Of a DNA stretch of 64,000 nucleotides, positions 43,821-44,484 are shown piece by piece. The first letter of the stretch is position 1. Every line of letters starts with the position of its first letter. Below the pieces are notes generated by a model that saw nothing but the letters and a program-made list of their open reading frames with translations, searched no databases and was not told the DNA's origin. Location: positions 125,570 to 189,569 of the forward strand of contig CANSHI010000001.1 of the NCBI GenBank assembly GCA_947646655.1, read 5' to 3'. Made by a program: the position numbers and the translations under genes. Source of the stretch: an uncultured bacterium (GTDB taxonomy: Bacteria > Bacillota_I > Bacilli_A > RF39 > UBA660).

Positions 43821-44484
43821 TTATTTATTTCTGAAAGGATTTTCCATTGTACCATTTCCTATCAATGTATTAGTATACTCTGGAGTTAATGAAATTACGG
43901 GAACTATGCCATTTATAACGTCAACATTGATATAACTGAGATTACCGCTATTATCTATGAAAAATACTCCACAAGCATTATTATAGTAAAAATAAGGAGA
44001 AAATGATGAGTATGAAATTCCTTTATATAAATAATATTTTGGATTATGTGTGCTAAACTTTCCACTTCCTGCGGTTAATATCTCATCTACTGCTAATAGT
44101 CCTATCTTTTCATCTAAAGCTCCATTTCCTTTTTCTATATCATTTACTGTGAAAGCATCGTTCTTTTTGGAACATTTAAATTGTGGTTTTACTAAACTTA
44201 TATCATTATTCCATGCGTTAGTTCTTGAAGTTCCTCCAAATGCTGTTATATTTTTTCCATAGCCTAATCCTGTATCACTGCTTAATCCTGTCGCATCTTT
44301 TCCTGGTGTACTTCTATCATTACAAAATATGCTATCTGCAACATATTCGTCTAATCCTTTATTTTTGATATTTGTTTTATACCATTCTTCTAATCTTATT
44401 TTTATGGTTGAACTTTCTGTATTGGTTTGTGCTTCTTCTTTACTTGTGCTTGGGTTAGTACCATTTGGTCCTTACATATAACCG
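43821..44484 (-). pseudogene. Promoterless, start-less 3' fragment (about 220 codons) of a fifth TasA-like paralogue, encoding only the conserved C-terminal domain; in-frame TAA at its 5' boundary
   Basis: The minus-strand translation gives GYM*GPNGTNPSTSKEEAQTNTESSTIKIRLEEWYKTNIKNKGLDEYVADSIFCNDRSTPGKDATGLSSDTGLGYG…KNDAFTVNDIEKGNGALDEKIGLLAVDEILTAG…VPVISLTPEYTNTLIGNGTMENPFRNK*. Positions 44261-44460 are about 93% identical at the DNA level to 42601-42820. Homology stops abruptly at about 44484. Confidence 0.7.

What the first reader, a model, noticed from the sequence alone, without database searches (positions are those of the whole stretch)
43821..44484. Promoterless, start-less 3' cassette of the TasA-like family adjacent to an expressed, possibly phase-variable copy: candidate gene-conversion donor
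The fragment encodes only the conserved C-terminal domain. It has no start codon, carries an in-frame TAA at its 5' homology boundary, and lies 40 bp upstream of the full-length paralogue 3. A stretch of about 200 bp (44261-44460 versus 42601-42820) is about 93% identical at the DNA level, far higher than the remaining alignment, which suggests recent gene conversion. Expressed gene plus silent partial cassette plus promoter homopolymer is the classic layout of antigenic-variation loci, for example pilE/pilS.
Basis: partly seen in the sequence, partly recalled or inferred. Interest (0 to 1): 0.7.

Follow-up and report, generated by a model that had tools for sequence, protein, structure and literature searches.

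The report
Truncated paralogue remnant with old recombination tract
A headless, promoterless leftover of a secreted-fibre-protein gene sits just upstream of an intact sister gene and shares one old recombination tract with it, but nothing indicates that it works as a reserve cassette for antigenic variation.

Summary
Window 43821-44486 (- strand) is a 5'-truncated copy of the adjacent 517-aa gene P3 (42161-43714). It has an in-frame TAA at 44472-44474, no usable start codon and no promoter.

Divergence along the alignment is far from uniform (max-chi2 p<0.0005, also at third codon positions). There is a single breakpoint near 44100. The 5' ~385 nt share ancestry with P3 (dS about 0.3). The 3' ~275 nt are saturated and no closer to P3 than to proteins from other genomes. 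A past recombination between paralogues is therefore well supported.

The pilE/pilS-like reading is not supported:
- The shared tract is old, and its longest identical run is 59 nt.
- It evolved under purifying selection (dN/dS about 0.1), so both copies were coding after the exchange.
- It runs up to the truncation edge.
- There is no 3' flanking homology.
- Only one partial copy exists in 64 kb.
- The two copies are in direct orientation, with no recombinase or inverted repeats nearby.

The best reading is a young pseudogene remnant of a tandem paralogue, in a large and fast-evolving family that combines a TasA-like N-domain with an uncharacterised C-domain. The G11 tract in the P3 promoter spacer is real and is a separate candidate for phase variation.

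The parts
43821..44486 (-). 5'-truncated paralogue fragment (pseudogene remnant). It is homologous to P3 residues 296-517. It holds 216 open codons (44471-43824) and a stop at 43823-43821.
   Evidence: Translation; tblastn 69% aa identity to P3; sharp homology boundary; no in-frame start before codon 203.
44472..44474 (-). In-frame TAA replacing a conserved Tyr (TAT in P3 and P2). This is a fragment-lineage point mutation.
44100..44486 (-). Shared-ancestry (recombination) tract with P3 (P3 partner about 42449-42829). It is 92% identical at 44250-44486 and 84% at 44104-44190. pS is 0.19-0.34. It contains a fast-evolving 21-codon patch (about 44190-44250) with dN/dS about 1.2.
43824..44099 (-). 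Anciently diverged 3' part of the fragment. It is about 59% nt identical to P3, with pS about 0.78 (saturated). It is as far from P3 as from family members in other genomes.
42161..43714 (-). P3, an intact 517-aa paralogue. It has a signal or anchor helix, a TasA-like N-domain and a C-domain of about 300 aa.
43751..43783 (-). P3 promoter-like element: TTGACA (43783-43778), then a 21-nt spacer containing G11 (43770-43760), then TGG and TATAAT (43756-43751). It is homologous to the P1 promoter, which has GGAAAGGGGG and a 19-nt spacer.
   Evidence: The 16-18-nt spacer scan does not call it.
44509..44543 (-). Terminator-like hairpin plus U-run directly after sigE and directly upstream of the fragment.
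   Evidence: dG -10.2 kcal/mol, z -2.5.
42161..44540 (-). Lineage-specific 2.38-kb insertion (hairpin, fragment, promoter and P3) between sigE (44541-45230) and sigG (41324-42100).
   Evidence: Relatives with 87-88% identical SigE have sigE and sigG 60 bp apart. The ancestral TTTTTGAATAAAA sigG-upstream sequence now follows the P3 stop.

Best explanation
The fragment is a young, non-functional remnant of a second family gene ('gene A') that stood in tandem upstream of P3.

**Shown**
- Fragment plus P3 form a 2.4-kb lineage-specific insertion between sigE and sigG.
- The 5' ~385 nt of the fragment share a common origin with P3 (dS about 0.3). Its 3' ~275 nt belong to a separate, anciently diverged paralogue lineage. 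There is a single breakpoint near 44100.
- Substitutions in the shared tract were filtered by purifying selection (dN/dS about 0.1), with one fast-evolving loop patch.
- The frame is still open apart from one TAA.

**Inferred order of events**
1. A tandem pair arose. Tandem arrays are the normal state of this family elsewhere.
2. One homologous exchange occurred between the two copies, either an unequal crossover giving a chimeric gene or a gene-conversion tract, while both were intact coding genes.
3. A later deletion removed gene A's promoter and first ~295 codons, up to the sigE terminator, and a TAT>TAA change arose in the fragment lineage (its order relative to the deletion is not resolved).

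The remnant now has no promoter, no start codon and no role. It will decay. Any further exchange with P3 would be incidental RecA-type recombination between repeats, not a programmed variation system.
For: - **Mosaic.** Max-chi2 places the breakpoint at nt 383 of 654, with 13.8% versus 41% differences. At third positions the figures are 20% versus 56%. Both give p<0.0005.
- **Synonymous divergence.** pS between fragment and P3 is 0.19-0.34 up to alignment column ~560 and about 0.78 after it. All P1/P2/P3 pairs show 0.4-0.9 throughout.
- **Protein level.** The first 85 aa are 88% identical to P3, with the next best at 70%. The last 131 aa are 59% identical to P3, compared with 57-59% to proteins of other genomes. 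The best database relative of the 3' part is 51% identical.
- **Background.** Family-wide aa identity is 0.62 / 0.47 / 0.71 / 0.52 for the four blocks. Only the 5' tract exceeds this background.
- **Selection.** dN/dS is 0.10 and 0.21 in the two high-identity blocks, and 1.2 in the patch even though pS there is only 0.38.
- **Open frame.** The other two frames hold 24-27 stops. 5.9% of substitutions would create a stop, so fewer than about 30-40 neutral hits have occurred since inactivation.
- **Context.** Tandem arrays of full-length family genes exist elsewhere. The ancestral state is sigE and sigG adjacent.
Against: - The order of exchange and truncation is inferred, not shown.
- An open 216-codon frame is also what indirect selection on a donor cassette would produce.
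- The fragment may never have been full length at this site. The 2.4-kb piece could have arrived already truncated.
- The source is a metagenome-assembled contig known from a single assembly. The 44484 junction and the G11 length could not be checked against reads.
Confidence: 0.7

Rival explanations
1. Functional silent donor cassette. The fragment is kept as a promoterless reservoir. RecA-mediated non-reciprocal transfer copies parts of it, such as the hypervariable loop patch, into the expressed and poly-G-switched P3. This would be a minimal pilE/pilS- or vlhA-like antigenic-variation locus.
For: - The layout is an expressed gene plus an adjacent promoterless 5'-truncated copy plus a promoter homopolymer.
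- The frame is open over 216 codons.
- A 21-codon patch with dN/dS about 1.2 is flanked by high-identity segments with identical runs of 59, 30 and 29 nt that could support exchange.
- One exchange between the two has certainly happened.
Against: - Only one partial copy exists in 64 kb. A single donor homogenises rather than diversifies.
- The shared tract has dS about 0.3 and no tract of recent identity.
- P3 carries no fragment-type sequence in the patch or the 3' part.
- There is no homology 3' of the variable region.
- The tract reaches the homology edge, which fits truncation after the exchange.
- No partial copies were seen next to family genes in 18 related loci.
- The break lies inside a domain, not at a module boundary.
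Confidence: 0.1
2. The fragment arrived already truncated. A 2.4-kb segment was copied from another family array into the sigE-sigG spacer. Its left end happened to fall inside the upstream gene, which was already a chimera, so no full-length gene A ever existed at this locus.
For: - The whole 42161-44540 block is an insertion relative to relatives.
- The same spacer holds an unrelated 470-aa gene in another relative, so it is an insertion hot spot.
- The family occurs in tandem arrays from which such a segment could be copied.
Against: - A terminator-like hairpin lies between sigE and the fragment and is absent from relatives. It would have to be part of the insert or have arisen later.
- No source array with a close relative of the fragment's 3' part exists among the genome's proteins in the database.
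- The low dN/dS in the fragment lineage still requires a long coding past somewhere.
Confidence: 0.15
3. Assembly artefact. The metagenome assembler joined sigE's downstream region to the middle of a real full-length gene through a repeat, producing an apparent truncation.
For: - The contig is a MAG contig seen once.
- Two assemblies that share one family array (L012 and L013) are 100% identical for 3.4 kb and then diverge abruptly inside a family gene. This shows that such repeats can produce either real or artificial chimeras.
Against: - The junction is not inside a repeat. The sequence upstream of 44486 is unique and has no similarity to any paralogue.
- The TAA and the missing start are independent lesions.
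Confidence: 0.05

Closest known systems
Neisseria pilE/pilS pilin antigenic variation (from my own knowledge)
   Same: An expressed gene with a promoter, and a nearby promoterless 5'-truncated homologous copy. Conserved and variable segments alternate. There is a G-rich element upstream of the expressed gene.
   Different: - There is one partial copy here, not many.
- There is no 3' conserved repeat for resolution.
- The shared tract is old (dS about 0.3).
- The G11 run lies inside the promoter spacer and is not a demonstrated G4-forming recombination initiator.
- No variants have been observed.
Mycoplasma synoviae vlhA pseudogene cassettes and M. genitalium MgPar repeats (from my own knowledge)
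   Same: A single expression site plus 5'-truncated copies of a surface protein gene in a low-GC Bacilli/Mollicutes-related lineage. The copies are in direct orientation.
   Different: Those systems have tens of pseudogene copies or nine MgPar loci, with documented chimeras. Here there is a single remnant and no sign of recent transfer.
Decaying tandem duplicates and unequal-crossover chimeras in multigene surface-protein families
   Same: The features match: tandem arrangement, a single recombination breakpoint, truncation, a premature stop and loss of the promoter.
   Different: Nothing essential differs. This is the category the evidence fits.
Promoter-spacer homopolymer phase variation, such as M. 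hyorhinis vlp poly-A and N. meningitidis porA/opc poly-G/C (from my own knowledge)
   Same: The P3 promoter has a G11 run between perfect -35 and -10 hexamers. The 21-nt spacer would become 17-18 nt with G7-G8.
   Different: Length variation has not been observed. The homologous P1 promoter already has a 19-nt spacer, so the -35 hexamer may matter little; both promoters carry a TGn extended -10.
TasA fibre protein (PDB 8aur) and N-terminal domain of Thomasclavelia ramosa IgAse (PDB 9qa6)
   Same: - The IgAse NTD is described as a decorated C-type-lectin-like domain (PMC12237041).
   Different: - There is no significant sequence similarity to either.
- Pfam Peptidase_M73 is at or below threshold.
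- The tool did not report which P3 residues align to IgAse.
- The fragment holds no TasA-like part at all.

Membership tests
Gene-conversion antigenic variation locus (pilE/pilS, vlhA, vlsE type) | One expression site with its own promoter | tested here: met
   P3 has perfect TTGACA and TGnTATAAT hexamers and an RBS upstream of the ATG at 43714, homologous to the P1 promoter. Spacing is non-canonical at 21 nt.
Gene-conversion antigenic variation locus (pilE/pilS, vlhA, vlsE type) | A repertoire of several silent, promoterless partial copies | tested here: not met
   tblastn finds only P1, P2, P3 and this one fragment in 64 kb. The rest of the 250-kb contig could not be fetched.
Gene-conversion antigenic variation locus (pilE/pilS, vlhA, vlsE type) | Conserved homology on both sides of the variable segment(s) | tested here: inconclusive
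   For the loop patch, flanking blocks are 92% and 84% identical. For the variable 3' third there is no 3' homology at all.
Gene-conversion antigenic variation locus (pilE/pilS, vlhA, vlsE type) | Evidence of recent or ongoing non-reciprocal transfer (identical tracts, mosaic alleles) | tested here: not met
   dS is 0.30-0.38 in the shared tract. The longest identical run is 59 nt (P=0.08). Population variants are not testable because no second strain was found.
Site-specific inversion shufflon (M. pulmonis vsa type) | Silent 3' cassettes in inverted orientation, short inverted recombination sites and a nearby recombinase | tested here: not met
   The fragment is in direct orientation. Only AT-rich chance inverted repeats occur. 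The neighbours are spoIIGA, sigE, sigG, a PRC-barrel gene, lspA and rluD.
Pseudogene / truncated tandem duplicate | Missing 5' region and promoter, no start codon, premature stop, homology to an intact neighbour | tested here: met
Homopolymer-spacer phase-variable promoter | A mutable homopolymer (8 nt or longer) between the -35 and -10 hexamers | tested here: met
   G11 at 43770-43760 lies between TTGACA and TATAAT. It is the only G/C run of 7 or more in 64 kb, and none occurs in about 170 kb of related loci.
Homopolymer-spacer phase-variable promoter | Tract length varies within or between populations and changes expression | not testable with these tools
   There is a single assembly, with no reads and no second strain.
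TasA / camelysin (Pfam PF12389 Peptidase_M73) | Sequence match above the Pfam gathering score | tested here: not met
   P1 scores 22.4 bits against a cutoff of 22.5. P2 scores 16.9. P3 and the fragment have no hit.
TasA / camelysin (Pfam PF12389 Peptidase_M73) | TasA-like fold of the N-terminal domain | tested here: met
   [not shown]

The most novel reading that the evidence does not exclude
P3 is a poly-G phase-variable fibre adhesin, with a TasA-like stalk domain and a lectin-like head. Its head domain is diversified by segmental gene conversion from the adjacent headless copy and from the eight or more other paralogues in the genome. That would be the first pilE/pilS- or vlhA-like variation system in a spore-forming, uncultured gut Bacilli lineage.
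Probability: 0.08. Interest if true: 0.7.

Novelty: new member of a known kind. Interest (0 to 1): 0.3.

Why it matters
As it stands, this is an ordinary product of multigene-family turnover: a truncated tandem paralogue that records one old recombination event.

It has some value as a dated snapshot of how a very large, unannotated family of secreted proteins evolves. The family has more than 3,500 database members and at least 8 copies on this contig. It is found in uncultured gut Bacilli and evolves by tandem duplication, exchange between paralogues, fast change in one surface loop, and gene death.

The broader points deserve more follow-up than the fragment itself. These are the TasA-like N-domain joined to a C-domain whose fold resembles the IgAse N-terminal domain, and the unique G11 tract in the P3 promoter.

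Tried and rejected
- **Other strains.** I looked for other strains to find mosaic alleles, and none were found. The nearest relative of P3 is 59% identical. The genome-collection scan gave 5 distant loci. The metagenome scan with the fragment gave at most 48% identity. The fragment's 3' part has no relative above 51%.
- **Rest of the contig.** Fetching the rest of the 250-kb contig through P0001, P0002, P0006 and P0014 failed; they are not on record. The cluster look-up gave no accession.
- **The gene at the same site in L006.** I tested whether the gene between sigE and sigG in the closest relative L006 is the fragment's parent. It is an unrelated 470-aa acidic protein.
- **The divergent patch.** I considered it a second conversion tract from a P1-like donor and rejected this. 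Its pS (0.38) matches the flanks, and only dN is raised.
- **Purifying selection alone.** I considered that the high-identity block reflects only purifying selection. This is rejected by synonymous sites and by the family background.
- **Inversion shufflon.** Rejected on orientation and the lack of inverted repeats.
- **Annotation searches.** Pfam, NCBIfam and PDB sequence searches gave no annotation for the C-domain. The literature search on the family found nothing relevant.
- **Promoter homopolymers elsewhere.** I looked for G/C homopolymers in the promoters of related family genes and found none.

Full report
**Observation.** All relevant genes lie on the - strand.
- The intact paralogue P3 runs from the ATG at 43714 to the stop at 42161-42163 (517 aa). 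The 540-aa TTG ORF listed mechanically is not the real gene.
- Upstream of it, 43821-44486 translates in one frame as SFGYM*GPNG...NPFRNK*. This is homologous to P3 residues 296-517.
- The homology boundary at 44484-44486 is sharp.
- A TAA at 44472-44474 stands where P3 and P2 have TAT (Tyr).
- The only in-frame ATG/GTG/TTG codons in the 216 open codons are at positions 203 and 209.
Random 200-mers of the window average 29%.
- The homopolymer is C11 at 43760-43770. It is the only G/C run of 7 or more in the window.
The '40 bp' is the distance to the P3 promoter, not to its ATG. The fragment also begins inside the C-terminal domain rather than at its start.

**Context.**
- The window holds three full-length paralogues and this single partial copy. 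They are P1 at 968-2533, P2 at 33143-35065 and P3.
- P3 and the fragment lie between sigE (44541-45230, preceded by spoIIGA) and sigG (41324-42100).
- In five loci from relatives whose SigE is 87-88% identical, sigE and sigG are separated by only 60 bp.
- The sequence that follows sigE there (TTTTTGAATAAAA...) now follows the P3 stop in the window.
- So 42161-44540 is a 2.38-kb lineage-specific insertion. It consists of a terminator-like hairpin, the fragment, a promoter and P3.
- In another relative the same spacer holds an unrelated 470-aa gene.
- Elsewhere the family occurs as operon-like tandem arrays of full-length genes.

**Mosaic structure.**
- A codon-based alignment shows 13.8% differences in the first 383 nt and 41% in the last 271 nt. 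At third positions the figures are 20% and 56%. Max-chi2 permutation gives p<0.0005 for both.
- Proportional synonymous difference between fragment and P3 is 0.19-0.34 up to alignment column ~560, then about 0.78. Every pair among P1, P2 and P3 shows 0.4-0.9 throughout.
- At protein level, the first 85 residues are 88% identical to P3, with the next best family member at 70%. The last 131 residues are 59% identical to P3 and 57-59% identical to proteins from other genomes.
- A database search with the 3' part found nothing above 51%.
- Family-wide mean identity for the four blocks is 0.62, 0.47, 0.71 and 0.52. The similarity of the fragment to P3 exceeds this background only in the 5' tract.
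- A 21-codon patch inside the tract (P3 residues about 375-395) looks divergent, but its pS is 0.38, like its flanks. Its dN/dS is about 1.2. It is a fast-evolving loop, not a separate ancestry block.
- The simplest description is one shared tract (44486 to about 44100), one breakpoint, and an ancient 3' part.
- Homologous exchange between the two copies is therefore well supported.

**Timing and selection.**
- In the shared tract dS is 0.30 (block 1) and 0.38 (block 2), with dN/dS of 0.10 and 0.21.
- Polarising the 28 differences with P2 assigns 13 to the fragment lineage and 7 to P3. About half of the fragment-lineage changes are synonymous, although non-synonymous sites outnumber synonymous ones about 4 to 1.
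- Both copies were thus under coding constraint for most of the time since the exchange.
- The fragment frame is still open, while the other two frames hold 24 and 27 stops. Because 5.9% of possible substitutions would create a stop, no more than a few dozen neutral substitutions can have occurred since inactivation.
- The exchange is therefore old and the inactivation is young.
- The shared tract runs right up to the homology edge. This is what a deletion cutting through a longer tract would leave. It is not what a conversion between an already truncated copy and P3 would produce, because that needs flanking homology.

**Tests of the cassette model.**
- There is one partial copy, not a repertoire.
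- There is no tract of recent identity. The longest identical run is 59 nt, which has P=0.08 within the 92% block.
- P3 carries no fragment-type sequence in the patch or the 3' third.
- No homology exists downstream of the two stop codons.
- The copies are in direct orientation, with no meaningful inverted repeats and no recombinase gene nearby.
- No partial copies were found next to family genes in the related loci examined.
- A single donor can only make P3 more like itself, so it cannot sustain variation.
- The open frame and the flanked hypervariable patch are compatible with a donor role but are equally explained by recent inactivation.
- I put the donor-cassette reading at about 0.1.

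**What the family is.**
- P3 has more than 3,500 database relatives, almost all unnamed. They come from MAGs labelled Bacilli, Tenericutes or Mycoplasmatota, and at least eight lie on this one contig.
- Pfam gives only borderline Peptidase_M73 hits on the N-terminus of P1 and P2. NCBIfam and PDB sequence searches give nothing.
- An AlphaFold model (pLDDT 82.7) matches the TasA fibre (8aur, Foldseek E 2.4e-6) and archaeal TasA-like filaments.
- The N-terminal domain of that enzyme is described as a decorated C-type-lectin-like domain that is dispensable for catalysis (PMC12237041).
- That the C-domain of P3 is the part matching this domain is my inference. The aligned residues were not reported.
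- The 'TasA-like' label holds at fold level for the N-domain, which the fragment lacks entirely.

**Promoter.**
- P3 is preceded by TTGACA, a 21-nt spacer and TGGTATAAT. The spacer contains G11.
- The homologous P1 promoter has GGAAAGGGGG and a 19-nt spacer.
- A scan allowing 16-18-nt spacers calls neither.
- No comparable G/C run occurs in about 170 kb of related loci.
- This is a credible slipped-strand phase or rheostat switch. G7-G8 would restore a 17-18-nt spacer. Length variation could not be tested.

**Verdict.** The fragment is best read as a recently inactivated, 5'-truncated tandem paralogue that records one old recombination with its neighbour. It is a new member of a known kind, and interest is modest (0.3). 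The most novel reading not excluded is a phase-variable, conversion-diversified fibre adhesin, with a probability of about 0.08.

Noticed in passing
window 43751-43783: G11 (C11 on the + strand, 43760-43770) lies inside the spacer between perfect TTGACA and TGGTATAAT hexamers of the P3 promoter. The spacer is 21 nt, against 19 nt (GGAAAGGGGG) in the homologous P1 promoter at about 2560-2600. It is the only G/C homopolymer of 7 or more in the window, and none occurs in about 170 kb of related loci. It is a candidate phase-variable promoter.
   Followed up: partly
L012 8971-13400 versus L013 1-4400: Two assemblies share a family array that is 100% identical for 3.4 kb. Identity then drops abruptly to 74-87% inside the second family gene (near codon 268), and the third gene and flanks differ. 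This is either a real strain-level recombination between arrays or an assembly chimera at the repeat.
   Followed up: partly
window 42161-44540; L006 8767-10179: The sigE-sigG spacer, 60 bp in most relatives, carries different cargo in different lineages. Here it holds the fragment and P3. In L006 it holds an unrelated acidic 470-aa protein. It looks like an insertion hot spot inside the sporulation sigma-factor cluster.
   Followed up: partly
L009 3231-5582: A 783-aa protein has an N-terminal ~185 aa that are 41% identical to the TasA-like N-domain of P3. These are fused to Flg_new repeats and a Hint/PT-HINT domain instead of the usual C-domain. The N-domain is therefore a module combined with different heads.
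   Followed up: no
window 33143-35065 (P2): P2 (640 aa) carries an insertion of about 120 aa between the TasA-like N-domain and the C-domain, relative to P1 and P3.
   Followed up: no
[not shown]
   Followed up: partly
window 20677-20720 and 39544-39587: A 44-nt repeat, 95% identical (TTTTTATTTTATGCAAGTTCCCTTGACATATTCATAATATCATA), contains a TTGACA. One copy lies near the tRNA genes at 20786-20951. The other lies about 560 nt upstream of the L21 leader and rplU operon. It may be a shared strong promoter.
   Followed up: no
window 9703-10839: A 378-aa ORF shows weak tblastn similarity (E 0.014-0.034) to the start of the family's C-domain, around the YYYRG...NYVKF motif region. It may be a distant relative of that domain.
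   Followed up: no
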